This document shows positions 26,448 through 43,723 of a DNA stretch of 64,000 nt, in pieces; position 1 is the first letter of the stretch, and every line of letters begins with the position of its first letter. The stretch lies in IMG/VR virus record IMGVR_UViG_3300037541_000827, one strand, 5' to 3'. The position numbers were made by a program, and so were the translations under genes. The notes under the pieces are model-generated. The model was not told where the DNA came from, did not search any database, and saw only the letters and a list, made by a program, of their open reading frames with translations. The DNA is from an uncultured virus (IMG/VR IMGVR_UViG_3300037541_000827) (lineage: Duplodnaviria; Heunggongvirae; Uroviricota; Caudoviricetes).

Positions 26448-26756
26448 CTAGAGGATCCGCTGCATCTTCTGCTGGGCCGGGCCTGCCCCTGGGGCCTTTC
26501 GGCAGACCTTGTTCATCGAGATGCAACTGGCCCCGCAGCTGTAGCCCGTGGCGCATTTCCGCTTCACCGCGTCGATCCGTGCAACAAGGGTTGCGGAGTC
26601 CCGCCGCTTGCCCCGCGCCGCGGCCACCGGTGGGGCCTTTTGCAGGCGCAGCATCACGGTGGTCTCCACGGCCACGTTGGCCCAGTCGATGGCCTCGACA
26701 TCGCTGCGGGGGGCCTGGGGGGTGGCGGGGGTGGGCATAGTCGTGGATCGGGGCAT
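26448..26756 (-). CDS. Small protein made of R-x-D motifs plus one Cys4 module
   Basis: RSD, RRD, RIDAVKRKCATGYSCGASCISMNKVCR; TAGCCT upstream. Confidence 0.7.
   Translation of the reverse strand: MPRSTTMPTPATPQAPRSDVEAIDWANVAVETTVMLRLQKAPPVAAARGKRRDSATLVARIDAVKRKCATGYSCGASCISMNKVCRKAPGAGPAQQKMQRIL
26499..26579 (-). repeat. Cys4 module copy (102-aa protein)
   Basis: Highly similar at DNA level to 41579-41659. Confidence 0.9.
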
Positions 26757-26951
26757 CAGGAACAGGCTAGAGATTCCGCCACTTGTTACGGGTGATCAAC
26801 TGACACACATGGACCGCGTTTCCGCGTCCGCCAGACGTTACGATTCGGGAGCGCGGGGGAGACCCGCACCGCCAGCCGGCCATAGGCGTAAAACCGGGCC
26901 GATCCGCTCCCAGCAGTCCGGGAGTGTCAACCCTTGCTCCCCACTTCAGCC

Positions 26952-27257
26952 ATGCCTGTAACGCACACAAAATATCTTGCCTTCATGGAAGGCTACGAAG
27001 AAGTGGTTGCACCTTTTGAGCAAGAGTTTATTCGCTTACGCGAGACGGAAGACAACCCAGACATGGACTTTATGCAGTTTATTGAGAGAATGGCCATGGT
27101 GGAGCGGCACCGTGACATTGCAATCGCCGAGTACGCTGGAATCCCGTCCACCAGACGGGCTCTAGATGAGTTGCACGCCGCCACTTGCGGTAGCCGCAGG
27201 TCCGCTTATGCCTACATAGTTCTTGACGAACTGCCAGATGATTACTGCGCCGACTGA
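26952..27257 (+). CDS. Acidic hypothetical protein (low-GC moron)
   Basis: MPVTHTKY... ~101 aa, lower GC, opposite to late genes. Confidence 0.6.
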   Translation: MPVTHTKYLAFMEGYEEVVAPFEQEFIRLRETEDNPDMDFMQFIERMAMVERHRDIAIAEYAGIPSTRRALDELHAATCGSRRSAYAYIVLDELPDDYCAD

Positions 27258-27307
27258 TCCTCGCTACGACCCGACCATCGCTGCATGGCTTTCGCTGGTT
27301 GATCTCG

Positions 27308-27514
27308 ATGCCTGATCCTTCTGGGGAGCGGGTGAAGAGGCATCGTGCGCGCCTTTCTGGCGACGCACCGCCTTGCCCAGTGTGCCCACAATGCGGCCGC
27401 AAAGTCTGGGGGCAGGTCTTTTTGCCTCTTTGCTCTAGATGCGGAAGGAAAACGCCTGCAGGCAAAGACGCAGATGCCGCTCGCAAAAGAAGTTCCCGCA
27501 ACCCGTCGAAATAA
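27308..27514 (+). CDS. Small zinc-finger protein
   Basis: CPVCPQC...CSRC. Confidence 0.5.
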   Translation: MPDPSGERVKRHRARLSGDAPPCPVCPQCGRKVWGQVFLPLCSRCGRKTPAGKDADAARKRSSRNPSK

Positions 27515-27523
27515 CTGAATGCG

Positions 27524-30500
27524 TCAATAGTTGTATCTAATTCCCCGCGCCTCAAGCGTCTTCGCGCCAAAGTCAGGAGTTATCTTCTGCCGCGTGCTGT
27601 AAATCGGCCTTGAAAGGAACGCACTCTTCCACGCCATATCTTTTTCTTCTTGGGTCGCCTTGTGTTTGGCCCCATGCTTTATTGCCAGCCCTGACACAAA
27701 AGTTAAAAAGGTTTGCCTGCGATGGCTCACTTTTTTGGCCGCGACCTTTTGCGTTTCGGTAAGGCTAGAGAGTTCACGTTCTCGCTTGGACCGACGTGTC
27801 AGCCTGCCCTGAATCGACTCTTTTGTTAATGCAACGCGTCTGTAAGACGGGGTCAATGCCATATTTGCACTCCTCCCCTTCGTTTCGCTGCGGAGCTTAA
27901 CAGCCTCTTGACCAGGCTCAGCAGGCTTGGCTGCAGCCGCTTTCGCCGCGGCCTGCTGGCGAGCACCGCGCAGCTGGCCGGCCTTGGCCCCGCGCTGCTG
28001 GCCGATGCCTGCCGCCAGTCCTGCGGCCTCTTGGGCCCTCACAGGGGCGATACCCCGCTGGGCCACCTTGCCGCCAGCGGCCAGGGCCAGCAGGCGCTTC
28101 ATCCGTTCCTTCCCGATCGCAGAGCTGGGGCTGGTTCGGCACTCCTTCCGCAGGCTGATGCAGGCCGACCCGCAGCCGTAGCCGGTGGTGCATTTCCGCT
28201 TGAGGGCGTCGATCCGGGCTTCGAGGATGTCGGCATCCCGCCGGCGGCTGCCGCCGAGGCGCCGCCGCGGCCGGCCACCACCCAGGGATGGATCTTCGCC
28301 ACCTTCACCACCGAACTGCTCCTCTGCCTGGATGCGCAGGTCGATCGTCTGCTTCTGGAGATCGTTCAGCCGCTTGTCCTGGGCCTTCATGTCCTCGAGC
28401 GCGCTCTTCAGGGCTCCAGAGACGGTGCCGGAGGCGCCGGCACGGTTGCGCATGGCCGCGGATCGAGCGGCAGCTTCAGGGGAGCTGGCCTGGGCCTGCA
28501 TCTTCTGGGCAAACTCGGCCTTGAACTTGTCCCGGGCCTGGTCCTTGCTCATGCCCCGGTAGCGGGTGCGGCGGTCGATTGTCCAGCCGGCCTCGAAGAG
28601 CTGCTCAGCGATCATCCCCATCTGCTTGGCGTCTGCGGCCTTCAGGGCCCCCAGGGTTTGCCTGAGGGCTTCTGTGACGCTGCCGGGTTTGGAGGCAGGG
28701 GCCGTCGTCGTGGGCCGGGCGGCTGCTCCACCGCCGGACTGGACGGCCAGGCTGCCGCCGGTGCTGGGGGTGCTGGCGGGCTGTTCCTTGAACAGCGGCA
28801 TGGTTTCGTCGTATTCGGTCACCCCAAACAGCGATCTCTGGCTCTGCTTGTTGCTGCTGATGGCCGTGGCCAGCCGGCCGCGCTCCACCGCCCTCTCTTC
28901 CTTCCGCCAGGCCTGAGCCCCGGATTGATCCCCGGCGGCCTGGGCGGCCTGCTGCTGCTGCCGGGCGAAGGCGGCCTGTTGCTTGCTGGTGGTCACGTCC
29001 TGGGCGTTTAGGCCCTGCTCCTTGGCCTTGGGTGCCAGGCCGGGATCCTGGCGGCCGGGGTTGGTCAGCACCGGCTGGGGTGAGCCTTCTGATGCGTTCC
29101 CATTTGCAAACGTGCCCTCTCGAATCGGCCTGGAATGCTTGTTGCCACCGATGCGCACGTCTGTTGCGGTCCCCCCTCTTGTTGCTGTGCCGGCAGCTGC
29201 AAAGGACTCAACTGTCTCCAGCACTTCGCGGTCGCTGGTGTCTCGCAGAAGGTTTCGATTGCCCACATAGGAGGCCTTGTACTCGGCCTGCCACTCGTTG
29301 CCACGGCGATTATTGGTGCCCTCCTCGGCATCCGCGTCACTTTTAGCGTTGTGGTCTGCGTACCAGTGCTCTGCTGCCTGGCGATCCCGGAAAAAGTAGT
29401 TTTGCTTGGTGGCTCCTCCACGCTGGGTGCGGTAATACTTCAGGCCACCCGCTGCTTTTCTTTTCTCTACTGCTGGATCGTAGTTTGTATCGCCTCCTGC
29501 AGCGATGCTCATTGGCTTTAAGGTGACGCCCTCCTTAAGTTGCGGAGTTGGCCGGTAGGGATTGGTTTGTTTCTCTTGAGCAGCCTTGGCTCGACGAGCA
29601 GCCTGGCGCTGGAATCGCAGCTCCTGAGCTTGGCCGGTGCGCCGACCCTGCAGATCAGCCGCCATGGTGGCCGCTTCGGCTGCTTTAGGCACACCTATCC
29701 CCTTGGGCTTGATTTCGCCTTGGGCCAGGGCCAGCAGCCGCTTCATGCGCTCCTTCCCGATGGCGCTGCGGGGAGTGGTGCGACATTCCTTCCGCAAGCT
29801 GATGCAAGCCGACCCGCAGCCATAGCCGGTGCTGCATTGCTTCCGCAGGGCATCGATCCGTTCCTGCAGGCTGTCGGCCCGGGGCCGCTTGCGCAGCCCC
29901 ACCGCTTCCAGCTCAGCCTGCACCGCCTCGAAGACATCCCGCTCCAGTTCCTTGCGCACCGTGGCCTCAGCCTCGCCGGCCTCCACCCGATCGGCGGCAC
30001 GGTTGAGGGCGGAGCTGATCGGGCCAGAGGAGCTCTTGAGCCGCTCGAACACCCCCAGGGCCTCGCTGGCCTCGCCGGCCACCTTGGCGCTCTGCTCCTG
30101 GTTGATCGTGTTCCCGCCCTTCTCGGTCAGGCTGGTGGCAGCCTTGGCCTTGCTGACGGTGGTGAAGAGCTTCTTCTCCCTGCTGATCTTGGCCTTCAGT
30201 GCAGCCGAGAGCTTGGCCCGGGTAATCAGGTTGTCCTTGGCCTCCTCGGTCTCGCCAAACAGGCTCATCGTCGTCTGGGTGCGTTGGGAGCTGGCAGCGG
30301 CATGCTCCACCAGCTCCTGCAGGGTCTGATCGGTGATGGCCTTACGGGAGCCAATCATCTTGAACACCTCCCGCTGCTTCGTGTCATCGAGGCCACTGCC
30401 GCCGATGATCGCCCCGCGGTTCACCGTCAGGTCCCCGCGCACCACGGCGTTGAACACGTCGCCGGGGAGCTTGCTGAGGCTCAGCCCCTTCGCGGCCTGG

Positions 30501-31606
30501 CCGCTGCCCAGGGGCAGGCCCCGGGCCTCCACGTCCTGCTGGCTCTTGATGCCGGTGTCGCGGAAGAACTTGGCCGCATCCATGGGGGAGCCCGCCCCCT
30601 CGGCGATGTTCTGCAGGGCCCCGATCGCTCGGGCCTCGGTGGCGGTGGCGGCGTTCAGGAACCGCACGGTGACGGCCTCCGCCCCCAGGCGGTTGGCCAG
30701 GGCCAGCCGGTTATGCCCGTTCACCACATAGACCTTGCCGTCGCCTGGGTCCTTCCAGACAGCCATCACGCCGGAGAGGTTGGCGTCCCACTTGCGCACC
30801 CCCGACAGGCTGCCCACCTCACCGGTGGTGGCGGTGGCGTTGAGCTTGTACTGGAACCGGGAGGGATCGAAGCCGATCTCCCCTGGCTTCATCTCCCGGA
30901 CGGTCCCGGGCTCCGTGGAGCTGTTGGCCCCGGATGGGAGCTTGCCGGTGCGCAGGAACTCGGCGATCTCCGGCCGCTCGAGCAGCTTCTGCACCCGCTG
31001 GGTGGTGCGGTCCTTCTGCAGGGCCGCTGCGGCCGCCCCGCGGGAGGCCATCACCTGGCTGGCGGTGTTGCCGGCCGACTGGTTCCCGGCGGCCGCCAGC
31101 TGCTGGAGGCGCCGCAGGCGGCCCTTGCCGATCGCTGAACGGGGGGCGATCCGGCACTCCTTCTGCAGGGAGATGCAGGCGTTGCCGCAGCCGTAGCCGG
31201 TGGCGCATTTCCGCTTCTGGCCACTGCCGGCCCGGGTGCGGCGGAAGTCCATCCGGGAGCCGGGGGCCCTCAGCTGCAGGAACGAATCCGAGCGCAGCTC
31301 CCAGCCACGCTGGAGCACCCCCTCCCAAGCGGGGCGATAGCCGACGCCTTCGGCATCGACACGGAACCGGTAGACCAGGCCATCGGCGGCCATACGCCCG
31401 GCATGGGCAGCACCCTCCTGCCGCCAGTCGAGCACCAGGGCGCCGGGGAGCACCTCGGCCAGTAGCTGCTGCAGCACCGGGGAGACCCGATCGCCAGCGT
31501 CATGCCGCAGGGCCATGGGCCGCCGGGGCAGGGCCTGCCGGGCCGTCGAGACCAGCTGGGCCTCGATGGCCGAGAGGCGATCTAGCAGGGACTGGTGGCG
31601 ACTCAT
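27524..31606 (-). CDS. Large polyvalent head-accessory protein: three Cys4 modules, ParB/Srx-like domain and other cargo domains
   Basis: 1360 aa; FDPSRFQYK...VYVVNGHNRL...QNIAEG ParB-like domain (~30300-30910); modules at 31151, 29780, 28136. Confidence 0.8.
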   Translation of the reverse strand: MSRHQSLLDRLSAIEAQLVSTARQALPRRPMALRHDAGDRVSPVLQQLLAEVLPGALVLDWRQEGAAHAGRMAADGLVYRFRVDAEGVGYRPAWEGVLQRGWELRSDSFLQLRAPGSRMDFRRTRAGSGQKRKCATGYGCGNACISLQKECRIAPRSAIGKGRLRRLQQLAAAGNQSAGNTASQVMASRGAAAAALQKDRTTQRVQKLLERPEIAEFLRTGKLPSGANSSTEPGTVREMKPGEIGFDPSRFQYKLNATATTGEVGSLSGVRKWDANLSGVMAVWKDPGDGKVYVVNGHNRLALANRLGAEAVTVRFLNAATATEARAIGALQNIAEGAGSPMDAAKFFRDTGIKSQQDVEARGLPLGSGQAAKGLSLSKLPGDVFNAVVRGDLTVNRGAIIGGSGLDDTKQREVFKMIGSRKAITDQTLQELVEHAAASSQRTQTTMSLFGETEEAKDNLITRAKLSAALKAKISREKKLFTTVSKAKAATSLTEKGGNTINQEQSAKVAGEASEALGVFERLKSSSGPISSALNRAADRVEAGEAEATVRKELERDVFEAVQAELEAVGLRKRPRADSLQERIDALRKQCSTGYGCGSACISLRKECRTTPRSAIGKERMKRLLALAQGEIKPKGIGVPKAAEAATMAADLQGRRTGQAQELRFQRQAARRAKAAQEKQTNPYRPTPQLKEGVTLKPMSIAAGGDTNYDPAVEKRKAAGGLKYYRTQRGGATKQNYFFRDRQAAEHWYADHNAKSDADAEEGTNNRRGNEWQAEYKASYVGNRNLLRDTSDREVLETVESFAAAGTATRGGTATDVRIGGNKHSRPIREGTFANGNASEGSPQPVLTNPGRQDPGLAPKAKEQGLNAQDVTTSKQQAAFARQQQQAAQAAGDQSGAQAWRKEERAVERGRLATAISSNKQSQRSLFGVTEYDETMPLFKEQPASTPSTGGSLAVQSGGGAAARPTTTAPASKPGSVTEALRQTLGALKAADAKQMGMIAEQLFEAGWTIDRRTRYRGMSKDQARDKFKAEFAQKMQAQASSPEAAARSAAMRNRAGASGTVSGALKSALEDMKAQDKRLNDLQKQTIDLRIQAEEQFGGEGGEDPSLGGGRPRRRLGGSRRRDADILEARIDALKRKCTTGYGCGSACISLRKECRTSPSSAIGKERMKRLLALAAGGKVAQRGIAPVRAQEAAGLAAGIGQQRGAKAGQLRGARQQAAAKAAAAKPAEPGQEAVKLRSETKGRSANMALTPSYRRVALTKESIQGRLTRRSKRERELSSLTETQKVAAKKVSHRRQTFLTFVSGLAIKHGAKHKATQEEKDMAWKSAFLSRPIYSTRQKITPDFGAKTLEARGIRYNY
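28136..28216 (-). repeat. Cys4 module copy 3 of the 1360-aa protein
   Basis: RIDALKRKCTTGYGCGSACISLRKECR. Confidence 0.9.
29780..29860 (-). repeat. Cys4 module copy 2 of the 1360-aa protein
   Basis: RIDALRKQCSTGYGCGSACISLRKECR. Confidence 0.9.
31151..31216 (-). repeat. Cys4 module copy 1 of the 1360-aa protein
   Basis: KRKCATGYGCGNACISLQKECR. Confidence 0.9.
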
Positions 31607-32013
31607 CGATCAGGGATCTCCTTCCACGGCCGGGGCGGCGTCAAGCGACTGCGCAGGTGGTCCCTTGCGGCAGCACTCGCTGCTGCTGCAAAGCCGATCT
31701 GGGCCTTCACTTCTTTGGCTGGGATCACCCCGACGGCTTCGGCGGCAGCCTGCAGCCGCTCCGGGCCGATGGCCTCGATCTGCTGCTGCAACTGGAAGGC
31801 TGGCCCCAGCGCCACCTTCAGCTCCTCGATGGGCTTTGCGGCCGCTGCCAGCAGCCGTTCCTCCAGCCCTTCGATGGCCGTGTCGATCCGGTCATCTGCT
31901 CGATCGATTGCGGCATCGATCGCACCATCCAGTTGGGCGCGGACCTTGAGCGCCAGCTTCTGGGCGAGGCGATCCAGCAAGGGCTCCAGCAGGCCATCGA
32001 GCCAATTCATCAC
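31603..32013 (-). CDS. Hypothetical helical protein
   Basis: 136 aa, coupled to both neighbours. Confidence 0.6.
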   Translation of the reverse strand: MMNWLDGLLEPLLDRLAQKLALKVRAQLDGAIDAAIDRADDRIDTAIEGLEERLLAAAAKPIEELKVALGPAFQLQQQIEAIGPERLQAAAEAVGVIPAKEVKAQIGFAAAASAAARDHLRSRLTPPRPWKEIPDR

Positions 32014-32306
32014 GATCCCCCCATGCGGGTTTTCATGCGCTCAATCCGGGCCTGGAGATCGTCCGGGGTGGTGCTGTCCTCCCGTCCGCCGCCTCCCTGG
32101 CCCTTGGGCTTGTAGGTGACCACGCCGCCCCTGGTGATCTTGAAGGTGAAGCGCATCTGGTTTGATACGAACTCACCTTGGGGTTCACCGCCGGCATCGG
32201 AGATCGACACGATCCGCACCGGGCGGATCTGTTCACTCAGCAGCTCAGTGGCCAGCTGCACCATCTCGGTTCGTCGATCCACAGGGCCTGCAGCGTTCTG
32301 AGTCAA
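32010..32306 (-). CDS. Small protein resembling the N-terminal domain of the 1360-aa protein
   Basis: FTFKITRGGVVTYKP...REDS...LQARIERM. Confidence 0.6.
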   Translation of the reverse strand: MTQNAAGPVDRRTEMVQLATELLSEQIRPVRIVSISDAGGEPQGEFVSNQMRFTFKITRGGVVTYKPKGQGGGGREDSTTPDDLQARIERMKTRMGGS

Positions 32307-32335
32307 GAATAGGCAGGGTGATCCCCTGGCTAAGT

Positions 32336-32503: not shown

Positions 32504-33226
32504 TCATGATGTCGGGAACAGTGTGCTGGGGATTGTAATGGTCCGGGCGACGCCTTTCGTTATACGCAGGGAAGCAATGTAGGCGTTGATGTTTGCGTCT
32601 GGACTTGATCCCGCTTCAGCGGAGCCAATGCCCCACGCATAGCCGCCAATCCACGAATCAGTGCGAGTTGCAGTAGTATTAATTTGAGAAACGCTGCCGC
32701 CAATCGGGCCAACAAATGCTCTAAACTGATTACTGCTTCTTGTAACGGCTGCGTAATACCATGTGTTGATCGACATGCCACTAGGACTGGCAATAGGACC
32801 GCCGCTGTCGCTAATGATGTCAAAGCGCAAGTTTGTGCTTCCAACATACAGCTGGGATCCAGAGGTAGAGTTTGCAGGCCCGGTGCCAAAAATAAACTTT
32901 GCATTTGGATAGCCTTCTCCGGTTGGCATCGCCTTTAGCCTTAAAATTACTTCAAGACTGAAGTCACCAGTCCCCATGTCAAGACTGGTGCTTGCTGGTG
33001 TCCAGAGGCTGTTGCTGCTATTGCCAGGGAAGTCGATGCTAGCGCCGGTGCCAAATGGAGTGAACGTAGTTGTTGGCGCAACCGAAGTGCCGATACGGTT
33101 AATCGTTCTGTTGAAGGAGCTTTTATCAACAACCAATGAATCAGCCGCTGCTGGCTGCAACAGCATCACCACATTCGCCCAATAGGGGTCGCTTGTTGTC
33201 ACCCTCCGCCTAGGAACGATCAGCAT
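32504..33226 (-). CDS. LamG/concanavalin-A-like virion protein
   Basis: SDPYWANVVMLL, GTGDFSLE, WYYAAVTR, LRITKGVAR; lower GC. Confidence 0.8.
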   Translation of the reverse strand: MLIVPRRRVTTSDPYWANVVMLLQPAAADSLVVDKSSFNRTINRIGTSVAPTTTFTPFGTGASIDFPGNSSNSLWTPASTSLDMGTGDFSLEVILRLKAMPTGEGYPNAKFIFGTGPANSTSGSQLYVGSTNLRFDIISDSGGPIASPSGMSINTWYYAAVTRSSNQFRAFVGPIGGSVSQINTTATRTDSWIGGYAWGIGSAEAGSSPDANINAYIASLRITKGVARTITIPSTLFPTS

Positions 33227-33260
33227 CTTGTTGCCTCCGATGTAGGGGCCACGTCTCCAC

Positions 33261-33878
33261 TCACGACGAGAGCCCATCGACCCACCCGGCAGACAGGTCG
33301 AACGCATCGCCCGCTTGGATCTGGGCCCTCAGTTCAGCGGCGCGTTCCATGTTTTGGAAGCCCGCAGCCACCAGCGCCTGGTGACGACTCAGCAGCTCCT
33401 GCATGAAGGGCGTTGCGGTGCCCTCAGCGTCGCGCCGGATCGCCTCAGCCAGCAGCACGCCCAGCATGGGATCCTCGTTGCTCGGATACAAGCGGGCGTT
33501 TGCCTGGAGGCGGGCCGCTTCCACCTGGTTGAGCAACTCCTCCTCTGGCCGCTTCTTCACCTCCAGCGTCTCCTCCCAGGTGCCGGCCGGGCCGCCCACC
33601 TTGGGGTTGGCATACTCAGCAGGGCCCCAGCTCGCCACCTCGAAAAAGATCGCGGGGTCATACTCGCGGACCTTCGGCTCACCGCGCAGGTAGAACTTCA
33701 GCTCGGTGCCGTCGTAAGGCAGGCCGAACAGGTTGGGCCAGCGGGTGCCGCCGGGGTTGGTCGCAAGCTCGCCGCGAAGGGGCACGAACAGGTCCACGCT
33801 CTGCCCCTCCAGCGGGCCGGGGTCGGCGTAGTAGCGCACGCCGGTCTCGGCGTTGGTGGTGATGTTGGGGGTGGTCAT
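33261..33878 (-). CDS. Fibre-associated hypothetical protein
   Basis: MTTPNITTN... ~205 aa between the fibre and LamG genes. Confidence 0.6.
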   Translation of the reverse strand: MTTPNITTNAETGVRYYADPGPLEGQSVDLFVPLRGELATNPGGTRWPNLFGLPYDGTELKFYLRGEPKVREYDPAIFFEVASWGPAEYANPKVGGPAGTWEETLEVKKRPEEELLNQVEAARLQANARLYPSNEDPMLGVLLAEAIRRDAEGTATPFMQELLSRHQALVAAGFQNMERAAELRAQIQAGDAFDLSAGWVDGLSS

Positions 33879-33880
33879 GG

Positions 33881-36561: not shown

Positions 36562-36591
36562 AATACATCAGTTCGGCTGTAGGGGTATGAT
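36562..36591 (+). promoter_or_regulatory. LexA-box-like site and TATGAT -10 of the excisionase operon
   Basis: AATAC-ATCA-GTTCG (1 mismatch) followed by TATGAT at 36586-36591. Confidence 0.5.
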
Positions 36592-36624
36592 CCGATCATC
36601 CCCGGACTGAGCCGACCCGGATCA

Positions 36625-36927
36625 ATGACATCGTTTTCCCGCTTTGCGATCACAACCGCCCTGCTGACGCTCGGCGCCTGCCATGCGGCGCCGGCCCATG
36701 CCGGCGTGGGCACTGCGGCCTGGGCAACAGCAGGATCGATCTGCCGGGCCCTGGGCGCCGACCTGACCATCCGCGCCGCCGTGCGAGTGGGGCTTTCCGA
36801 CAATGCCTACCTCTGGTTTTCAGAGATGCGCGACCCGTCGTTTCAGCAGCTGATGGTGGCCGAAACCGTCAGGCAATGCCCTGAGCAGCTGATCCGCGCC
36901 GTCAATCAAGGCCGGACGCAGCTATGA
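36625..36927 (+). CDS. Small secreted/membrane protein
   Basis: Signal-peptide-like N-terminus ending APAHA; two further Cys. Confidence 0.6.
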   Translation: MTSFSRFAITTALLTLGACHAAPAHAGVGTAAWATAGSICRALGADLTIRAAVRVGLSDNAYLWFSEMRDPSFQQLMVAETVRQCPEQLIRAVNQGRTQL

Positions 36928-37085
36928 AAGCCCAAATTGACGTCGACGGCGTGTTGACGATCACGCCGGAAAACCAGACTGAGGCTTATGCCCTGCGTCG
37001 CTGGAGTGAAGAGGGCGACGCAGGGGGTGTCCTGCATGCCGACTACAACGCATCCTTACCGCCTCGCGCAAAGGAGCACCAGTGA
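36924..37085 (+). CDS. Small hypothetical protein
   Basis: MKAQIDVDGVLTITPENQTEAYALRRW...; 53 aa, coupled on both sides. Confidence 0.5.
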   Translation: MKAQIDVDGVLTITPENQTEAYALRRWSEEGDAGGVLHADYNASLPPRAKEHQ

Positions 37086-37312
37086 TGGCCGCCCGCGTGC
37101 TGCTGACGGTCACGGAAGCCGCTGAGGTGCTGGGGGTTTCCGATCGCCATATCAAAAGGCTCATTCACGAAGCCGATGCCAACCGCAAGTCCCGCTGGCG
37201 CTGGGGCCGGGAGCTGATCGACCTGGCGCCGGTGGGCAGCAGCAGGCGCTGCGTGCGGGTGAATGTTGCGGCGGTGGCGCCGGGGGCGGGGCAGCCCTCA
37301 GCCTCCCCCTAA
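37082..37312 (+). CDS. Excisionase-like HTH protein
   Basis: LLTVTEAAEVLGVSDRHIKRLI; convergent with the integrase. Confidence 0.75.
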   Translation: MMAARVLLTVTEAAEVLGVSDRHIKRLIHEADANRKSRWRWGRELIDLAPVGSSRRCVRVNVAAVAPGAGQPSASP

Positions 37313-38302
37313 CGCCCTCTCCGCCGCCTCTGCCACCTGATGCGGCTGAATGTGAGCGCGGTAGGTCCGGGAGTGCTGGCCTGGGGTGTGACCCATCAGG
37401 CGAGCAGCGGTGTAGATGTCAAGCCTGCTGCCGCCCTCTCGCCATAGTCTCCCGCCGTAGGCGTGGCGCAGGGAGTAAGGCCGCCACGGCAGCCCCTGCC
37501 GCCGAAGCTCCTTGTGCAACCACTTGCTGACCGCATCCGGCCGATCGGCGCTTCCCTCTAGGCGCAATCGCAACCGCCGATCCCGCAACCCGAACCGCTC
37601 TACCCACTCACGGGGCAGCGGCACAACCGTTCTGAAACCCGTCTTTGTGCCATCCGCCACCTGGCACAGATCCCGACTGATCAGCTCCGCCCCCTCGATC
37701 TCATGGGGCCGGAGCCCGTAGCAAGCCATCATCCCCCAATACCAGCGCACCGGATCGGGCGCCCCCTCCACCCAGGCGATGATCTCGGGGTCAGTGGGCA
37801 CCGCCACCAACTCCGCCTGGCTGTAGGTGGGCAGTGGCACCTCCGGGAACGGCACCCCCACCAACCTGGCCAGATGCCGCAGCAGGTAGAACAGCTCTTT
37901 GTAGCTGCACGTGCTGCGGTCGTAGCGCTCTAGCGCCTTGGCCATGCTGGCGGTGGTGCAGGCGCTGGCCGGCGGGATCTGCCGCAGCCGGCCCAGATAG
38001 TTCACATCCCACGTGGTCTGCCCCGTGCGGCCGAGCACCACCCGAGCCCGGTAGAGCCTGGCGATGGCCTCGCGCCACGTGATCGTCCCTGATGCCTTGT
38101 CCAGCCAGTAGGCCCATTCAAAGGTGCCGCTCTCCAACTGCTGCTCCAGGGTCTTGAGCTGCTTTTCTGCGACCCGGCGGTTGATCGGGGTGTCGTCCAA
38201 CCGAAGGGCGATCCTGGCCTGCCGCAGCCCTGGAGCCCCGTCGCGCCGCGGCAGGTTGGCCAGCAGGTAGAGCCGGCCCCTTTGGCAGTTGATCGAGGCC
38301 AT
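37298..38302 (-). CDS. int: Tyrosine recombinase/integrase (cyanobacterial XisA-like)
   Basis: YGLRPHE, TKTG, YSLRHAY, LMGH...Y catalytic residues; N-terminal arm-binding region ending GTFEW. Confidence 0.9.
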   Translation of the reverse strand: MASINCQRGRLYLLANLPRRDGAPGLRQARIALRLDDTPINRRVAEKQLKTLEQQLESGTFEWAYWLDKASGTITWREAIARLYRARVVLGRTGQTTWDVNYLGRLRQIPPASACTTASMAKALERYDRSTCSYKELFYLLRHLARLVGVPFPEVPLPTYSQAELVAVPTDPEIIAWVEGAPDPVRWYWGMMACYGLRPHEIEGAELISRDLCQVADGTKTGFRTVVPLPREWVERFGLRDRRLRLRLEGSADRPDAVSKWLHKELRRQGLPWRPYSLRHAYGGRLWREGGSRLDIYTAARLMGHTPGQHSRTYRAHIQPHQVAEAAERALGGG

Positions 38303-38344
38303 GGGCGGCGAATACGAAACGTCCGGGGAGCAGACCTGGCAGCG

Positions 38345-38557
38345 ATGCACCGGCCGTGCATAACGTACGCCGTTCTAGTCCCTTGCTGTCCCTTCCTGTC
38401 CCTTAATGCCGTGCCGCCGTGCCGCTCAGATCGCTGTCAGGGCTTGCCATTTGCCCGCGACGACAGGCCAGAACTGCAAGATACAAATCCTCGTCAATCT
38501 CGCGGATGTCGTAGTGCCAAGCCAGTGATAGCAAGGGGTCTTGGGGCTGGTGCATAA
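38345..38557. other. Putative attP
   Basis: Next to int 5' end: GTGCATAA direct repeats (38356, 38550), three 10-bp-phased GTCCCTT (38378-38404), CCCTTGCT/AGCAAGGG inverted pair. Confidence 0.6.
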
Positions 38558-39258: not shown

Positions 39259-39549
39259 GCCACATTCCTTTCCATCACCAGCGAGGGCGGCAACTTCGGC
39301 CGCGTGAAGTGGACAAACGCTGCCCCCTTTCCCAAGGGGATTGTCTGGGGCCTGGTGCAGTGGGACATCTGGTGGCCCTTCAGGAACAAGCTCTTTGAGG
39401 CTGATGGCCCGAAGCTGGCTGCCCGGTGCGAAGAGATGGTCGAAGACCTGGCATGGACAGGGACACCCTTCGAGCTGACAGGCGCCTCCCATGGCAGCCA
39501 GGAAGGCCCTGGGGTTGTGTTCTACGTCAAGCGCAAACCGAGCAGCTGA
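39256..39549 (+). CDS. Hypothetical accessory protein
   Basis: 97-aa ORF after the repeated leader. Confidence 0.6.
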   Translation: MATFLSITSEGGNFGRVKWTNAAPFPKGIVWGLVQWDIWWPFRNKLFEADGPKLAARCEEMVEDLAWTGTPFELTGASHGSQEGPGVVFYVKRKPSS

Positions 39550-40935
39550 TCACACCTCCAGCTCCGCCACCTCAGTGACCATGGCCTCGTAGGCCTCGCG
39601 AGCGGCGGCATTGATCCATCCCCTGGAGGGGGTCCACACCGGATCCCCTGATGGCCAGGGTCTGGCGCCGCCGTTTGCCGGGTTGTTGGCCTGGTTCGGC
39701 CGGGGTGTGGTGGCCGGCAGGGCGGTGCGCTCCATCAGCGGGAAGTCGCCCGGGCCGCGGGGCTCACCGGTGCCGCCGATCGGCCGCCAGGGCCTGGTGC
39801 TGGCCTCGTCGTACTTCCTGCGGGTCGCCGCGGCCAGGGCCTGCTGCTGATCCTCCCAGCGCTCGCCGCGGTTGGCCGCCAGCTGGTTCTGGATCACCAG
39901 CGCCTCCAGGGTGATCGGGGAGAGGGCGCATCGGCAGTTCGGATGGATGGGGGTCTTCACGCTGCCGGCGTAGTAGAGGGCCCCCATCCGAGGGGCACAG
40001 AACTCACAGACCCGATCGTCGGCGGTGGCCACGTAGCGGACGAACCCGACGCCAATCCGGCGGAACGTTCTCTCCCTGGCTTCGCCGGCGGCGATGTGGG
40101 TCTCGGTGCGGGCCACGGTCTCGGCCCGGTTCCTGAAGGCGTCGTTGATGTGGGGGAGGCGAGCCTGGAGGTTGCGGGCCAGGGCGCGGCTGTCGACGCC
40201 GGTGGCCATCTGGGTGGCGGTCTCGAACTGCACGGCATCGCCCCAGTCGCGCCACCAGCGGAAGAAGTAATTTTTCGAGGCCCAGACACGATCAGATGTG
40301 GCGGCGTTGCGCTGGCGGCGGTAGTTGGCGCTGAGCGCCTTGAAGTCCCGCTCCGAGGCGGCGATGACGGCCCCCAGGTTCAGGAGCCTGGTGAAGGACT
40401 GCCCCTCCTGGTAGGGGCTGCCCGGGGCCGGGGCGTCGGTGGGGGCCGGTGGTGCCGCAGGTGGCAGCTGGGGATCCTGCAGCGAGGGGTGACGGCTGCT
40501 GAGCACGGCGGCCGGGGGGAGCATGTCCTTCGACAGCTCGAGGGCGTACTCGGTCCCCAGATCCTGGGCCCGGTTGTAGAGCTCCGCCAGCTCACGGTTC
40601 AGGGCTGCATTGGCTGCCCGATCGGCCGGGAAGCGGCTGATGATCGCCTGCAGGTCCTGGGCCAGCTGGCCCTGCAGGTAGAGGCTGGCCTGATTCTTCT
40701 GCAGGGGGGTGATCGGCACCGGGCCATCCGGGTTGCTGCCGAGGAACGCGCCGGGGGTGGTGGCCGGGTCGTAGTCGGGCTGGGCCTCGATCCGCTCCAG
40801 GCGGTCCATCAGGCTGCGGATGGTGCGACGCAGCGCCTCATCGAAGATCCCCCGGAGCTTGCGCAACTGCTGGTCCTCCAGGCCCCGCAGCTCCTGGTCG
40901 AGCTGCTCGATCAGATCCAGGGAGCGGTCAGCCAT
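39550..40935 (-). CDS. MuF/SPP1 gp7-like head morphogenesis protein
   Basis: RAETVARTE, ATADDRVCEFC, PIHPNCRC. Confidence 0.9.
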   Translation of the reverse strand: MADRSLDLIEQLDQELRGLEDQQLRKLRGIFDEALRRTIRSLMDRLERIEAQPDYDPATTPGAFLGSNPDGPVPITPLQKNQASLYLQGQLAQDLQAIISRFPADRAANAALNRELAELYNRAQDLGTEYALELSKDMLPPAAVLSSRHPSLQDPQLPPAAPPAPTDAPAPGSPYQEGQSFTRLLNLGAVIAASERDFKALSANYRRQRNAATSDRVWASKNYFFRWWRDWGDAVQFETATQMATGVDSRALARNLQARLPHINDAFRNRAETVARTETHIAAGEARERTFRRIGVGFVRYVATADDRVCEFCAPRMGALYYAGSVKTPIHPNCRCALSPITLEALVIQNQLAANRGERWEDQQQALAAATRRKYDEASTRPWRPIGGTGEPRGPGDFPLMERTALPATTPRPNQANNPANGGARPWPSGDPVWTPSRGWINAAAREAYEAMVTEVAELEV

Positions 40936-43723
40936 TCAGGCTTACGAACCGCGATCGCAAGCCATGCAGGCGCTGCTGGAGGGCATCCTTCCGCATTGCC
41001 TTGAGGCTGTTTTTCATCGAGACCAGTTTTTCGAAGACCTCACGATCGCCACCGGCATCCGGGTGGTGCTTTATCGCCAGCCTGCGAAATGCCTTGTCCA
41101 CATCGGCCTTTTTGGCCGTCTTGGGGTCCAGCCCGAAGACCACCCAGGGCCGGAAGTTTTTCAGGATGTCGATCCCATTGATGACGCTCCCGCCATCCTT
41201 GAGGCCTCGCTCATCGCGGGGCACCGCGACGAACCGTCGGTAGAGCTGCCGCCACTCCTCCTGGGCGTTCTGGCCCTTGAAGGTGCGGGTCTTATCCCCC
41301 TCGGTGGACATCTGGAAGTCCTGGTTGGCCAGCAGGGCCGAGGTGGTCTTCACGTTGAAGGCCTTGAGCACCGCCGACTGCACCTCCCGGGTGGACATCG
41401 GCTTGGCCCCTCCCCTGCCGCCGGATGCTGGCTGCTCCATGCTGGCCGAGCCTCCACCGCCAGCTGGTGCCGCCTTGGGTCGGGCACCACCGCTGACGGC
41501 GGGGCCGCCCTCATTCCCGGCCGCCAGGGCAAGAATCCGCCTCATCTTCTGCTGCGCCGGGCCTGCTCCCGGGGCCTTTCTGCAGACCTTGCTCATCGAG
41601 ATGCAGCCAGCGCCGCAGCTGTAGCCGGTCGTGCATTTCCGCTTCACGGCGTCGATCCGTTGCTGGAGCGTTGTCGCATGAGCTCGGCGATCGGCGACCG
41701 CGGCCTGGTAGGCCTCCTGGAGCAGCCGCTGGATCCGCTCTTCCCGGCTGTCGGTGCGGTTGTTGGGACCTGGGAACTTCTCCGCTTTGACCCGCGCAAG
41801 CAAAGCATCGAACATCGGCTCCATCTCTTCCGCCTGCTTGCGGGTGGGCCACAGCTCATGTCCAGTAGGTTGGGTCAGGTAGGTGTTAACCCGTTTGGCC
41901 TTATCCAGCTTCAGCTGGACGTGGGCCTCGAATGCCCTGGCAAACATCTCCTCGCGGCTCGTCCAGTAGTCAGCGCTGATGCCTAAGCCGCCCTTCTTCA
42001 TGCTCCGCACTGCCACCTGGACCTGATCTGCAAAGCCTGACTTGATCATCGACCACTGCATCTGGTTCATGGACTCGATCAGCTCGGGGGTGCCTCTGTT
42101 CTGCGAAACGAAACCAGTGCCGCCTGCTGCGTAGTTGTCCAGCGCGTGCGCCCATTCGTGGGCAAAGGTGCCGACGCCGTTCTTGCGGGTGAGGTTGATC
42201 ACCTTCAGGTCAGGCTCGAAGTGCGCCATGGCACCGCCTCGACCACGTGCACCAATAGCCAATCCCAAGGTGCCGTTTAGGCCAACTGCTCGGTCAGGCA
42301 GACCGGTCATGTCTGCCAGATCAACCATGGCTTCAGCGGCTTTCTGGACGTGGTGGCGGCGCTCATCGTCGGTGACCGAGTTGCCGTACTGCAGGCCGCG
42401 GAAGCCGAGCTTGTTGACGATGGTGTCGGTGGCGGCCTGGGCGGTGCTTCCAACCGAGCGGCCACCGACGCGGCGCTCTCCGGCCACGTAGAGGTCGGCG
42501 GCGCTGAATCGCTTCTTGCCACCCCCCTCCTTCCCGAAGGCGCTGCCGACAGTGGCGCCTTCCAGAATTTTCGTGCCGGTTTCCACGGCACGGGCCATAG
42601 ATTTGCCTGCGTCAGATAAACCGGTTTCCGTTTTTAAGAACTTGGCGAACTCATTCATCTGCCCGTAGACAGTTGACGTCGAGCGCCCCGACATCATCAG
42701 TCGTTTCTGCATAGGCACCAGGGCTTTAGCGGCTGGATTGAATGGATCTCTATAGGTCCTTGTATAGCCAGAACCCTCCAGGCCGCGGATGCGGTCGATG
42801 ATGCCCCCAACTCTTTGCCCCAATGCCATGCGGAGCTTCCCGGGTGGCATGTCTTTGTTTTCTTCTACAAATGTACGAACTTCCTGAAAGGCGTCAAAGT
42901 ATTGCTTGCGCACTGTTTTGGCGTCGACAGCTTGCTCGTCAGAAGTTGGTTTGCGGCCCGTGGCGCGGTCATACTCTGCGCTGTTCCGCTTACGCCGAGC
43001 GACGCCTTCGGTGTAGCTCTCAACGTCTTTTGCCGCAAGGTTTGGGAATGTCTTGAGGCTGTAGTGGGCCTCGAGGCGCGCAAGCACGTTCCCCTCATTG
43101 ACACCACTGATCAGGTCCGTCGGGAAGTTCTTCATCAGGATGTCCCTGGTGAGGATCTTCTCCACTTGGCCACTGGCTTCGGCCTCCTCGATCGTTCTGA
43201 AAGCGTTGCGCCTGTGGCGGGCGGAGTCGACGATGTCCTCTCCTGCGTTGCCCACGGCCGAGGCCCGGGCGAACTCGTAATCTGGATCGCCTTCCTTGGC
43301 TGCCCGATCGGCCTCTCCCCTTGGCGTGCCGGCCGGGGCCTTGCCAGTGCTGGAGGGGGGCGTGGCCGCCTTGGCTGCTGCGGCCTCAGCCGCTTGCTTC
43401 TCTGCTGCTGCCTTGGCCTTCTCAGCGGCCACCTGCTGGCGCCCGCTGCGGAGCTGGCCCGCCTTCTCCCCCCGGCGTGCGGCGATCGCCCCGGCCAGCT
43501 CACCGGCCTCCTTCTGCCGCACCTGTGCAATCCCCCGCTGAGAGGAGGCCCCGCCGGCGGCGAGCTCCAGGAGCCGCTTCATGCGCTCCTTCCCGATGGC
43601 GCTGCGGGGAGTGGTGCGGCATTCCTTGCGCAGGCTGATGCAACTGCTGCCGCAGCCATAGCCGGTGGTGCATTTCCGCCTGAGGGCATCAAGCCGGTGC
43701 TGCAGGGAGATCGCCAGGCTCAT
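40928..43723 (-). CDS. Polyvalent protein: two Cys4 modules, zincin/LPD1 domain, C-terminal DnaJ J-domain
   Basis: FRGLQYGN, FAHEWAHALD, EMFARAFE; FRRLAIKHHPDAGGD; lies between portal and MuF. Confidence 0.85.
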   Translation of the reverse strand: MSLAISLQHRLDALRRKCTTGYGCGSSCISLRKECRTTPRSAIGKERMKRLLELAAGGASSQRGIAQVRQKEAGELAGAIAARRGEKAGQLRSGRQQVAAEKAKAAAEKQAAEAAAAKAATPPSSTGKAPAGTPRGEADRAAKEGDPDYEFARASAVGNAGEDIVDSARHRRNAFRTIEEAEASGQVEKILTRDILMKNFPTDLISGVNEGNVLARLEAHYSLKTFPNLAAKDVESYTEGVARRKRNSAEYDRATGRKPTSDEQAVDAKTVRKQYFDAFQEVRTFVEENKDMPPGKLRMALGQRVGGIIDRIRGLEGSGYTRTYRDPFNPAAKALVPMQKRLMMSGRSTSTVYGQMNEFAKFLKTETGLSDAGKSMARAVETGTKILEGATVGSAFGKEGGGKKRFSAADLYVAGERRVGGRSVGSTAQAATDTIVNKLGFRGLQYGNSVTDDERRHHVQKAAEAMVDLADMTGLPDRAVGLNGTLGLAIGARGRGGAMAHFEPDLKVINLTRKNGVGTFAHEWAHALDNYAAGGTGFVSQNRGTPELIESMNQMQWSMIKSGFADQVQVAVRSMKKGGLGISADYWTSREEMFARAFEAHVQLKLDKAKRVNTYLTQPTGHELWPTRKQAEEMEPMFDALLARVKAEKFPGPNNRTDSREERIQRLLQEAYQAAVADRRAHATTLQQRIDAVKRKCTTGYSCGAGCISMSKVCRKAPGAGPAQQKMRRILALAAGNEGGPAVSGGARPKAAPAGGGGSASMEQPASGGRGGAKPMSTREVQSAVLKAFNVKTTSALLANQDFQMSTEGDKTRTFKGQNAQEEWRQLYRRFVAVPRDERGLKDGGSVINGIDILKNFRPWVVFGLDPKTAKKADVDKAFRRLAIKHHPDAGGDREVFEKLVSMKNSLKAMRKDALQQRLHGLRSRFVSLNG
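41579..41659 (-). repeat. Cys4 module copy 2 of the 931-aa protein
   Basis: RIDAVKRKCTTGYSCGAGCISMSKVCR. Confidence 0.9.
43616..43696 (-). repeat. Cys4 module copy 1 of the 931-aa protein
   Basis: RLDALRRKCTTGYGCGSSCISLRKECR. Confidence 0.9.

What the first reader, a model, noticed from the sequence alone, without database searches (positions are those of the whole stretch)
26448..43723. Repeated Cys4 carrier module links diverse cargo domains in head-region polyproteins: candidate capsid-loaded effector system
Seen: six copies of [RID/RLD]A-x-[KR][RK][KQ]C-x-TGY-x-CG-xx-CIS-xx-K-x-CR (26499, 28136, 29780, 31151, 41579, 43616; the 31151 copy lacks the RIDA lead-in) in three genes. They continue into a basic helix (SAIGKERMKRLL or PAQQKM.RIL), up to ~100 aa in total. 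In the two large proteins each copy precedes a different domain: ParB-like, a low-GC unknown domain (~29100-29580), a low-GC basic C-terminus, zincin/LPD1, and a DnaJ J-domain. The genes sit among portal, MuF and protease genes. Known: polyvalent proteins and P1 Dar/Ddr antirestriction proteins are packaged in heads and injected. Inference: the module is a Zn-binding capsid- or DNA-targeting tag, and its DNA-level similarity lets cargo be swapped by recombination. I do not know of a description of this module.
Basis: partly seen in the sequence, partly recalled or inferred. Interest (0 to 1): 0.9.

Follow-up and report, generated by a model that had tools for sequence, protein, structure and literature searches.

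The report
Swappable cysteine handle on phage-packaged effectors
A cyanophage carries six copies of an undescribed small four-cysteine protein module, each heading a different enzyme-like domain in proteins encoded among its head genes, and related phages have gained, lost and swapped these module-plus-cargo units by recombining within the module.

Summary
Six in-frame copies of a C-x5-C-x3-C-x6-C module with a basic helix lie in three minus-strand genes, between the portal, MuF and prohead-protease genes of a ~67-kb temperate cyanophage.

The module is a real, selected protein domain:
- dN/dS is below 1 in all 15 pairs of copies.
- A profile search found 135 representative proteins among 1.84 billion.
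- It has no Pfam, NCBIfam or PDB match, and I found no description in print.

Its partner domains vary widely: zincins, J-domains, kinases, ADP-ribosyltransferases, a Mu-type portal.

Cargo swapping at the module is shown directly. One relative carries a single chimeric module exactly where the window has module 2, cargo and module 3. Another replaces module B plus DnaJ with module A plus a kinase-like domain. The P0001 copy is a 165-nt insertion.

Virion packaging is supported indirectly. All four module-bearing ORFs of the distant cyanophage CL131 are in its published virion proteome.

Zn binding and the targeting function remain untested, because the complex predictor was unavailable.

New lead: the "RIDA" lead-in matches an R-x-D motif strongly enriched in the protease/scaffold proteins of four phages. 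It may be the prohead-protease cleavage site.

The parts
40928..43723 (-). P0003, 931-aa polyvalent protein: module A, unknown region, LPD1 zincin, module B, J-domain. Its start overlaps the portal stop and its end overlaps the MuF start.
43403..43702 (-). Module copy, type A (100 aa; Cys4 core at 43637-43672), at the N-terminus of P0003
   Evidence: AF2 model with pLDDT 80.9
41774..42472 (-). Zincin region of P0003 (residues ~418-650). The Pfam LPD1 match covers residues 584-648.
   Evidence: LPD1 8.1e-13; phrog_18947; CLCA_X 2.1e-26, below cut-off
41513..41665 (-). Module copy, type B (core alignment), preceding the J-domain
   Evidence: 88% DNA identity to the P0001 copy
41018..41125 (-). 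DnaJ J-domain match (residues 867-902, HPD present)
   Evidence: homologues above cut-off
27524..31606 (-). P0002, 1360-aa polyprotein: N-domain, module 1, ParB-like domain, module 2, cargo 2, module 3, basic C-terminal cargo
31208..31606 (-). Conserved N-terminal domain of P0002 (133 aa; helix plus four-stranded beta-meander in a low-confidence model). It carries three R.D[AGS] sites.
31085..31237 (-). Module copy 1 (no RIDA lead-in), running into the ParB-like domain
29927..30928 (-). ParB/Noc-like domain (residues 227-560)
   Evidence: phrog_21 1.9e-51; Noc 7ng0, E 0.022; Pfam gives nothing
29714..29866 (-). Module copy 2 (core); left recombination partner in the L021 comparison
28223..29713 (-). 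Cargo 2: unknown domain(s), including the low-GC tract ~29100-29600. The segment 28235-29723 is absent from relative L021.
28070..28222 (-). Module copy 3 (core); right recombination partner in the L021 comparison
27524..28069 (-). Cargo 3: helical tail of module 3, then a basic low-GC C-terminus (GC ~0.50 at 27500-27900)
26448..26756 (-). P0001, 102 aa: a small protein ending in a cargo-less module B copy
26437..26602 (-). ~165-nt module insertion in P0001. It is absent from relatives L021 and L006 and resembles the P0003 module B DNA.
24838..26124 (-). DUF2213 prohead protease with an acidic scaffold-like C-terminal half; 10 R.D[AGS] sites against 0.74 expected
43720..45684 (-). Portal (Phage_portal_3) with a C-terminal extension carrying three R.D[AGS] sites
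39550..40935 (-). MuF-domain minor head protein

Best explanation
The six repeats are copies of an undescribed protein module of about 50-100 aa. In order, it has a hydrophobic-R-x-D-A lead-in, a C-x5-C-x3-C-x6-C knuckle on a beta-hairpin, a basic amphipathic helix, a Gly-rich turn and a long helix. The module is the constant 'handle' of cassette-like units, each made of a handle plus a variable effector domain. These units occur singly or strung into polyproteins among the virion genes of a clade of cyanophages.

Proposed mechanism:
1. The handle brings each unit into the assembling particle. This is inferred and the partner is unknown. The acidic scaffold half of the protease protein or the portal are the best candidates.
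2. The DUF2213 prohead protease cuts at the R-x-D-[AGS] lead-ins and so separates the units of a polyprotein. This is inferred from motif statistics.
3. The units leave with the DNA and act on the host through zincin, J-domain, ParB-like, kinase, ART and other cargo. This is inferred from the polyvalent-protein paradigm.
4. Because the handle is repeated and similar at the DNA level, homologous recombination between handles deletes, inserts and exchanges cargo cassettes. This step is shown by comparison with related phages.
For: Real, selected module:
- There are exactly six regex hits.
- dN/dS is below 1 in 15 of 15 copy pairs, for example dN 0.12 against dS 0.80.
- The profile of the six copies finds 135 proteins at E<=1e-3 and 75 at E<=1e-10 among 1.84e9 representatives.
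- Those 135 hold 166 module instances, of which 148 have the C-x5-C-x3-C-x6-C spacing and 82 have an R.D[AGS] lead-in.
- The AF2 model has pLDDT 80.9, with a hairpin and two helices.

Handle plus variable cargo:
- The first module starts within the first 40 residues in 84 of 134 representatives.
- Partner Pfam families include LPD1, M90/ATLF-like zincin, DnaJ, Pkinase, ART, LRAT, DUF676, GNAT and ParB_N. One protein is Portal_Mu followed by two modules.
- In 40 P0002-like proteins the stretch from module 1 to module 2 is 79-95% identical to P0002 in 39 (52% in one). The part after module 2 ranges from 157 to 780 aa, and in 3 of them it shows no detectable similarity to P0002.

Recombination at the handle:
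- L021 has one chimeric module, whose 5' flank matches window module 2 and whose 3' flank matches module 3. It lacks window 28235-29723.
- L016 replaces module B plus DnaJ (window ~40940-41652) with a type-A module plus a kinase-like domain.
- The P0001 module is a 165-nt insertion absent from L021 and L006.

Virion association:
- The genes lie between portal, MuF and protease.
- 52 IMG/VR loci and 4 Cyanobium-MAG loci carry the module, nearly all beside the same head genes.
- In CL131 the module-bearing ORFs 044, 045, 047 and 048 are all in the published virion LC-MS/MS table, with 9, 123, 24 and 175 PSMs against 86 for the capsid protein (PMC6293099, supplementary file 2).

Protease-site idea:
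- R.D[AGS] is enriched in the window protease (10 against 0.74 expected), P0001 (2 against 0.10), P0002 (7 against 1.72), P0003 (4 against 1.18) and the portal (4 against 1.02). It occurs 0-1 times in the TMP, TerL, MuF and tail protein.
- The enrichment replicates in the proteases of PaV-LD (12 against 0.93), CL131 (3 against 0.48) and S-CBS4 (5 against 0.51).
- Among all 400 gapped dipeptides, R.D ranks first in the window and PaV-LD proteases.
- R-x-D lies at residues 4-9 of the capsid protein in all 4 phages.
- The sites are conserved in 12 aligned proteases.
Against: - No binding partner was tested, because complex prediction was never run. Zn binding is only guessed from four invariant Cys. 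The spacing is not a classical ribbon, and no structure or family match supports a metal site.
- The module also occurs internally and fused in cis to a portal (P0181), where a targeting tag would be redundant.
- S-CBS4, the closest cultured phage by capsid protein (44% identity), has no module. The module is therefore accessory to this head type.
- In PaV-LD and CL131 the module genes lie next to the tape-measure gene. CL131 copies are followed by hydrophobic segments, and ORF045 is as abundant per residue as the capsid protein. At least some members may therefore be structural or channel-forming rather than head cargo.
- The CL131 and PaV-LD copies are distant (per-genome E from 7e-9 to 4e-3). 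Two CL131 copies were found only by my relaxed regex.
- I chose the R-x-D motif after seeing the lead-in. In CL131, R.D ranks only 16th. It also recurs with heptad spacing (R.D.L..R.DAL) and could be a helix feature. No cleavage data exist.
Confidence: 0.55

Rival explanations
1. The module is a passive, metal- or disulfide-stabilised spacer or hinge between independently acting domains of polyvalent proteins, with no role in targeting. Cargo exchange at the module is only a by-product of its repetition.
For: The module is often internal: the first copy lies beyond residue 40 in 50 of 134 representatives. It occurs in cis after a Mu portal. No partner has been identified. S-CBS4, which has the same head type, lacks it.
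Against: A mere spacer would not be expected to keep 13 of 51 core positions invariant with dN/dS around 0.15. Nor would it be expected to head so many single-cargo proteins at their extreme N-terminus (84 of 134; four consecutive small genes in L046).
Confidence: 0.2
2. The module is a basic nucleic-acid-binding domain. It attaches the proteins to the packaged genome, neutralising charge or escorting the DNA, so that they leave with the DNA.
For: The module is rich in K and R around the cysteines. CL131 ORFs 044-048 have pI 9.1-10.2. The module is found with two different portal types, which fits a partner as universal as DNA.
Against: Proteins bound to DNA cannot pass the portal during packaging, so DNA binding alone cannot explain incorporation (general knowledge). 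No similarity to any DNA-binding family or fold was found.
Confidence: 0.15
3. The module is a homotypic or heterotypic assembly domain. It bundles the several module proteins of one phage into a single ejected complex, comparable to an ejectosome or trans-envelope conduit (P22 E-proteins, T7 core), with the enzymatic domains as passengers.
For: Several module proteins co-occur in each phage: 3 genes here, 7 copies in PaV-LD, and up to 5 consecutive genes in L045. The model has long helices. CL131 copies are followed by hydrophobic segments and lie next to the tape-measure gene.
Against: No oligomer prediction could be run. The window copies lack hydrophobic segments. Many cargo domains are typical cytoplasm-acting enzymes.
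Confidence: 0.1

Closest known systems
Polyvalent proteins of phages and conjugative elements (Iyer, Burroughs, Anand, de Souza, Aravind 2017; PMC5512222)
   Same: These are large multidomain proteins in virion-gene contexts that combine a zincin (LPD1) with other effector domains. They are predicted to be packaged, delivered with the DNA and processed by proteases. P0003 carries the Pfam LPD1 domain.
   Different: That paper's main text has no occurrence of 'cysteine', 'ribbon', 'ZnR' or 'linker'. None of the Pfam LPD families matches the module. The repeated handle that precedes each cargo, and recombination at it, are not part of the passages I saw.
MuF-type polymorphic toxins of temperate phages (recalled: Jamet et al. 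2017; MuF fusions are also mentioned in PMC5512222)
   Same: A constant head-associated N-terminal domain is joined to a highly variable C-terminal effector, and the effector is exchanged by recombination.
   Different: Here the constant part is the Cys4 module, not MuF. MuF is a separate gene (39550-40935). The handle is repeated within one polypeptide.
T4 capsid targeting sequence and internal proteins; P1 Dar proteins (recalled; named in PMC5512222 passages)
   Same: An N-terminal address directs proteins into the prohead. The prohead protease then processes them, and they are injected to counter host defence.
   Different: There is no sequence similarity. The T4 CTS is a ~10-aa peptide cleaved at LxE, whereas this is a folded Cys4 domain of 50-100 aa that may stay on the cargo. 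The function here is untested.
P22 ejection proteins and T7 internal core proteins (recalled; P22 abstract seen in the listing)
   Same: Their genes follow the head-completion genes, and the proteins are virion-internal and ejected. This matches the gene position of the module proteins in PaV-LD and CL131.
   Different: They share no domain with the module and have no variable enzymatic cargo.
PHROG 33618 (unknown function) and PHROG 16619 ('minor head protein')
   Same: These are the only library families that match the module: phrog_33618 hits all three window proteins at the module.
   Different: They are automatic clusters with no described function or domain definition.

Membership tests
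Polyvalent proteins (Iyer et al. 2017) | One polypeptide combining two or more effector-type domains | tested here: met
   P0003 has LPD1 zincin plus a J-domain. P0002 has a ParB-like domain plus two unknown cargo regions.
Polyvalent proteins (Iyer et al. 2017) | Presence of a large-polyvalent-protein-associated domain or zincin hub | tested here: met
   Pfam LPD1 at 48.7 bits against a cut-off of 27 in P0003. No such domain is detected in P0002 or P0001.
Polyvalent proteins (Iyer et al. 2017) | Encoded among virion or packaging genes of a (pro)phage | tested here: met
   Portal, MuF, protease, cement protein, capsid protein and TerL flank the genes.
Polyvalent proteins (Iyer et al. 2017) | Delivered into the host with the DNA | not testable with these tools
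   Only virion presence of distant homologues in CL131 is documented.
MuF polymorphic toxins | N-terminal MuF (PF04233) domain in the same polypeptide | tested here: not met
   There is no MuF match in P0001, P0002 or P0003. MuF is the separate gene 39550-40935.
MuF polymorphic toxins | Variable C-terminal toxin with an adjacent immunity gene | tested here: inconclusive
   C-termini are variable. A convergent small acidic ORF, 26934-27257, lies in the same low-GC block as cargo 3, but it has no family match.
Classical zinc ribbon or zinc knuckle | Two CxxC (or CxxH) knuckles as metal ligands | tested here: not met
   The spacing is C-x5-C-x3-C-x6-C in 148 of 166 instances. No Pfam Zn-domain matches, apart from one sub-threshold partial AWS hit on a small distant protein.
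Zn-binding domain in general | Four ligands clustered around a metal | not testable with these tools
   There are four invariant Cys on or around a predicted hairpin. No coordinates or metal assay were available.
DnaJ J-domain (PF00226) | Helical J-domain with the HPD motif | tested here: inconclusive
   HPD is present. The score of 23.8-25.5 bits is below the 27.8 cut-off. Homologues score 28-35 bits.
ParB/Srx N-terminal domain | ParB_N profile match with the GxxR box | tested here: inconclusive
   Pfam gives nothing. The Noc structure matches at E 0.022. A 'NGHNR' motif is present. phrog_21 matches at 1.9e-51 but is annotated as portal.

The most novel reading that the evidence does not exclude
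The Cys4 module is a portable encapsidation handle that works with a protease code. Any protein placed behind it would be loaded into the prohead through the acidic scaffold or the portal. The DUF2213 protease would then cut it free at the R-x-D-[AGS] lead-in, and it would be delivered to the host with the DNA. On this reading, a phage lineage has evolved a generic plug-and-play system for exchanging injected effectors, and this head family has a readable cleavage motif.
Probability: 0.3. Interest if true: 0.85.

Novelty: new variant of a known kind. Interest (0 to 1): 0.66.

Why it matters
How polyvalent and other injected phage proteins get into capsids is largely unknown outside T4 and P1. 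A small, recognisable handle domain would help in three ways:
- It marks packaged effectors and so gives a sequence signature for finding new anti-defence or host-takeover cargo. Most cargo behind the module has no known family: 99 of the 135 representatives have no Pfam hit.
- It gives a concrete, testable route of cargo exchange by recombination.
- If the targeting role holds, it offers a tool for loading proteins into phage particles.

The R-x-D motif, if it is the cleavage site of DUF2213 proteases, would allow mature virion proteins to be predicted in a widespread head type that also includes Pam3-like and E217-like phages.

Tried and rejected
Module searches that found nothing useful:
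- Pfam and NCBIfam gave no family for the module.
- The PDB sequence profile gave 0 hits at E<=1.
- Foldseek against PDB gave nothing at E<=1e-3.
- VIA-align wide gave a best Z of 5.1 to generic helical hairpins, which is not meaningful.
- The ESM Atlas gave no usable hit.
- Earlier findings of this scan returned nothing.

Complex prediction. A job with protease/scaffold alignment A7, Zn and module alignment A3 was never accepted. The queue was full, and the tool was then declared unavailable. No binding test exists.

Other attempts:
- N-terminal domain of P0002: the model has low confidence (pLDDT 63.9) and no fold match.
- Cargo 2 (low-GC domain): an alignment with 23 homologues showed the tract is variable, with only one close relative, so I did not fold it.
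- The PaV-LD genome and proteome paper (PMC3255931) is not held, so its virion proteome could not be checked against the seven PaV-LD copies.
- The whole genome of the window is not held.
- Prevalence in cyanobacterial genomes: 2 of 401 sampled genomes matched. One was the Cyanobium MAG used as centre and the other was a weak 27-aa match. The module is therefore not a common prophage feature in those searched.
- S-CBS4: 0 matches.
- The literature search for DUF2213 cleavage specificity returned nothing relevant. The Pam3 paper has no occurrence of 'cleav' or 'protease'.

Chance or a recent duplication without function was rejected on dN/dS and on the breadth of the family.
Full report
**1. 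Setting**

The window has about 65% GC. Most of it is a phage genome.
- On the minus strand lie TerL (48540-50099), the portal (43720-45684, Phage_portal_3), P0003 (40928-43723) and MuF (39550-40935).
- Then comes an ~8-kb block with a tyrosine integrase and tail-like proteins (32504-38350).
- Then come P0002 (27524-31606), P0001 (26448-26756), a DUF2213 prohead protease (24838-26124), a cement protein, the major capsid protein (PF09950), a tape-measure protein with an M23 peptidase, and tail genes.

The window's portal protein occurs on contigs up to 67,421 nt. Related IMG/VR contigs reach 67-70 kb. The closest cultured phage by capsid protein is Synechococcus phage S-CBS4 at 44% identity. 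Four related loci lie in Cyanobium MAGs. No whole genome is held for the window.

**2.

Aligned over 51 residues, the copies share invariant C11, T13, G14, Y15, C17, G18, C21, I22, S23, K26, C28, R29 and P32. Three type-A copies stay alignable for about 100 residues. Two type-B copies, the P0003 internal copy and the P0001 copy, are 88% identical in DNA. The copy before the ParB-like domain lacks the RIDA lead-in.

All 15 pairs of copies have dN below dS. For example, module 2 against module 3 gives dN 0.123 and dS 0.795. The copies are therefore old and held by selection on the protein. They are not just recent DNA repeats.

- The J-domain scores just below Pfam's cut-off. It has the HPD motif, and homologues pass the cut-off.
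- The 'ParB-like' call rests on a PHROG match and a weak Noc hit.

The two low-GC tracts are real.

**3. How wide the family is**

A profile of the six copies, run over 1.84 billion representative proteins, finds 135 at E<=1e-3, 75 at E<=1e-10 and 11 at E<=1e-30.

These 135 proteins hold 166 module instances:
- 148 have the spacing C-x5-C-x3-C-x6-C.
- 82 have an R.D[AGS] lead-in within 16 residues upstream of the first Cys.
- 106 proteins have one copy, 24 have two and 4 have three.
- The first module starts within the first 40 residues in 84 of 134.

A word-based search with P0003 residues 1-110 gave 110 further proteins in two architectures. The P0003-like form has a module at residue ~18, a zincin, and optionally a second module plus cargo. 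The P0002-like form has an N-domain, a module, a ParB-like domain, a module and variable cargo.

Pfam matched 36 of the 135 representatives at E<=1e-3, and never on the module itself. The one exception is a sub-threshold partial AWS hit on a 110-aa protein. The partner families are:
- LPD1 and M90/ATLF-like zincins
- DnaJ
- protein kinase
- ADP-ribosyltransferases
- LRAT
- DUF676 / alpha-beta hydrolase
- GNAT
- ParB_N
- in P0181, a Mu-type portal followed by two modules

The precomputed accessions add PF06414, PF13671 and PF01163. I recall these as Zeta toxin, AAA_33 and RIO1.

Among the weakest hits are small proteins with signal-peptide-like N-termini and tandem copies of the bare Cys motif (P0223, P0225, P0230, P0234, P0236). 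These suggest the Cys core is older than the phage handle.

In cyanobacterial genomes the module is rare. Of 401 genomes sampled from the phylum of a Cyanobium MAG, 2 matched: the MAG itself and one weak 27-residue match.

**4. Not a described family**

- Pfam and NCBIfam give nothing for the module.
- Only the automatic PHROGs 33618 (unknown function) and 16619 ('minor head protein') cover it.
- The PDB holds no sequence relative.
- The AF2 model built from 64 sequences has pLDDT 80.9 and pTM 0.63. It shows a short N-terminal helix, a beta-hairpin at residues 15-22 carrying the middle cysteines, a helix at 34-48 and a long helix at 63-99. It has no meaningful fold match.
- The main text of the polyvalent-protein paper contains no 'cysteine', 'ribbon', 'ZnR' or 'linker' (PMC5512222, passages).
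- Two further full-text searches, of which I saw only listings and abstract starts, turned up no description.

**5. Cargo exchange at the module is shown by comparison**

In 40 P0002-like proteins, the stretch from module 1 to module 2 is 79-95% identical to P0002 over ~497 residues in 39 of them (52% in P0074). The part after module 2 is 157-780 residues long. In three proteins whose constant part is 90-95% identical, the part after module 2 has no detectable similarity to P0002 at all.

The DNA comparisons show the following.
- **L021** aligns to window 29724-32322 at 90% and to 26603-28234 at 95%. The two alignments overlap on one module of L021.
- A three-way alignment shows that this single module matches window module 2 on its 5' flank and window module 3 on its 3' flank. 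The switch lies inside the shared core. This is the footprint of homologous recombination between two handles, removing or adding one [handle + cargo] unit of ~1.5 kb.
- **L016** is 95.6% identical to the window from the portal down to 41652, which is the start of module B. It then carries a type-A module followed by a kinase-like sequence, and rejoins the window at the MuF gene.
- **L005** replaces window 26436-28077 with ~1 kb of other sequence behind its third module.
- **P0001's module** is a ~165-nt insertion. L021 and L006 have the same small gene without it, and the inserted DNA resembles module B of P0003.
- Relatives carry arrays of such units: five consecutive frames with six modules in L045, and four consecutive small genes each with one module in L046.

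**6. Virion association**

In the Cyanobium-phage lineage the units always lie between portal/MuF and protease/capsid genes. These loci are close relatives, so they do not count as independent evidence.

Independent evidence comes from two distant cultured cyanophages.
- **PaV-LD** has seven copies. They lie in an 812-aa frame at 38.8 kb and in ORFs 065R, 078R, 079R, 080R, 081R and 085R. In the three ORFs whose start I checked (080R, 081R, 085R) the copy lies within ~50 residues of the N-terminus.
- **CL131** has copies in gp044, gp045, gp047 and gp048. The gp045 copy and the N-terminal gp048 copy were found only by my relaxed pattern.
- The published LC-MS/MS table of purified CL131 particles lists all four: ORF044 with 9 PSMs, ORF045 with 123, ORF047 with 24 and ORF048 with 175. 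ORF048 has the highest score in the table. For comparison, the capsid protein has 86 PSMs, the portal 107 and the tape measure 110 (PMC6293099, supplementary file 2).

Points to hold against a simple 'head cargo' reading:
- In both these phages the module genes lie between the head-completion genes and the tape-measure gene.
- CL131 copies are followed by hydrophobic segments.
- ORF045 is as abundant per residue as the capsid protein.
- S-CBS4, which has the same head type, has no module.

The PaV-LD proteome paper is not held.

**7. A new lead: the lead-in looks like a protease site**

The R-x-D-A lead-in prompted a count of R.D[AGS] in the window's proteins against 1000 shuffles each.

| Protein | Observed | Expected | p |
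|---|---|---|---|
| Protease/scaffold | 10 | 0.74 | <0.001 |
| P0001 | 2 | 0.10 | 0.002 |
| P0002 | 7 | 1.72 | 0.003 |
| P0003 | 4 | 1.18 | 0.028 |
| Portal (three in its C-terminal extension) | 4 | 1.02 | 0.019 |
| TMP (1604 aa), TerL, MuF, cement | 0 | | |
| Tail J-like protein | 1 | | |

The enrichment recurs in the proteases of PaV-LD (12 against 0.93), CL131 (3 against 0.48, p = 0.002) and S-CBS4 (5 against 0.51).

An unbiased scan of all 400 gapped dipeptides puts R.D first in the window protease (14 against 2.95, z 6.9) and in the PaV-LD protease (15 against 4.08, z 6.1). It ranks 16th in CL131. It is depleted in the TMP, TerL and MuF.

The sites are conserved among 12 aligned proteases of 49-93% identity. 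All four capsid proteins have R-x-D at residues 4-9: RQDN, RLDA, RMDA and RMDE.

The simplest reading is that R-x-D-[small] is the cleavage motif of this protease family. On that reading the polyproteins are cut just upstream of each handle. This is inference. I chose the motif after seeing the module. It also recurs with heptad spacing before the modules (R.D.L..R.DAL). No cleavage data were found.

The scaffold half of the protease protein is very acidic, and the module proteins are basic. This suggests, but does not show, an electrostatic docking of the handle on the scaffold.

**8. What could not be done**

No partner has been tested. Model coordinates are not exposed, so the geometry of the four cysteines could not be checked.

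**9. Verdict**

The module is a real, undescribed, selected domain. Cassette exchange by recombination within it is demonstrated. Its membership in virion proteins is supported by published proteomics of distant relatives.

Its biochemical role is inferred. It may be an encapsidation handle, a DNA binder, an assembly domain or a mere hinge, and whether it binds zinc is unknown. P0003 meets the tested criteria of a polyvalent protein. The handle itself is a new element within that known kind of system.

Noticed in passing
window 24838-26124 (protease); also the MCP N-terminus near 24160 and the portal C-terminus 43720-44200: R-x-D is the most over-represented gapped dipeptide in the DUF2213 protease/scaffold protein. 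It lies at residues 4-9 of the capsid protein in four phages. It is depleted in TerL, MuF and the TMP. This makes it a candidate cleavage code for this head-maturation protease family.
   Followed up: partly
window 26934-27257 (+): A convergent 107-aa acidic ORF lies in the same low-GC block (GC ~0.50-0.55) as the basic C-terminal cargo of P0002. It has no PHROG match. The arrangement is reminiscent of a toxin-immunity pair.
   Followed up: partly
window 26200-26427 (+): A small HTH repressor-like gene (phrog_2328, 1.5e-11) lies on the opposite strand, between P0001 and the protease gene.
   Followed up: no
window 32504-38350: A tyrosine integrase (37298-38350) and tail-like or lectin-like proteins (33881-35494, 32504-33307) sit inside the head-gene cluster, between MuF and P0002. 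The block is conserved in related phage contigs.
   Followed up: no
window 43720-44230 (portal residues ~485-654): The portal C-terminal extension has a conserved CCxxC cluster, a run of basic residues (RRKRRRD) and three R.D[AGS] sites. Related portals instead carry PF20106, and one is named 'anti-CBASS Acb1 family protein' by NCBI.
   Followed up: no
proteins P0223, P0225, P0230, P0234, P0236: These are small (74-110 aa) proteins with hydrophobic, signal-like N-termini and two tandem copies of the bare CxxGxxCGxxCIxxxxxC(H) motif. They may be a secreted relative of the Cys core, which raises the question of disulfides versus metal.
   Followed up: no
L065 (CL131) 39276-48140: In CL131 each module copy is followed, within ~30 residues, by a hydrophobic, membrane-helix-like segment. 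All five ORFs 044-048 upstream of the tape-measure gene are basic virion proteins.
   Followed up: partly
window 45788-46753 (+): A sigma-70-family factor gene (Sigma70_r2, phrog_351) lies divergently next to the portal gene.
   Followed up: no
window 18266-19471 and 11464-16278: A KilA-N domain protein sits among the tail genes. The 1604-aa tape-measure protein has an embedded M23 peptidase.
   Followed up: no
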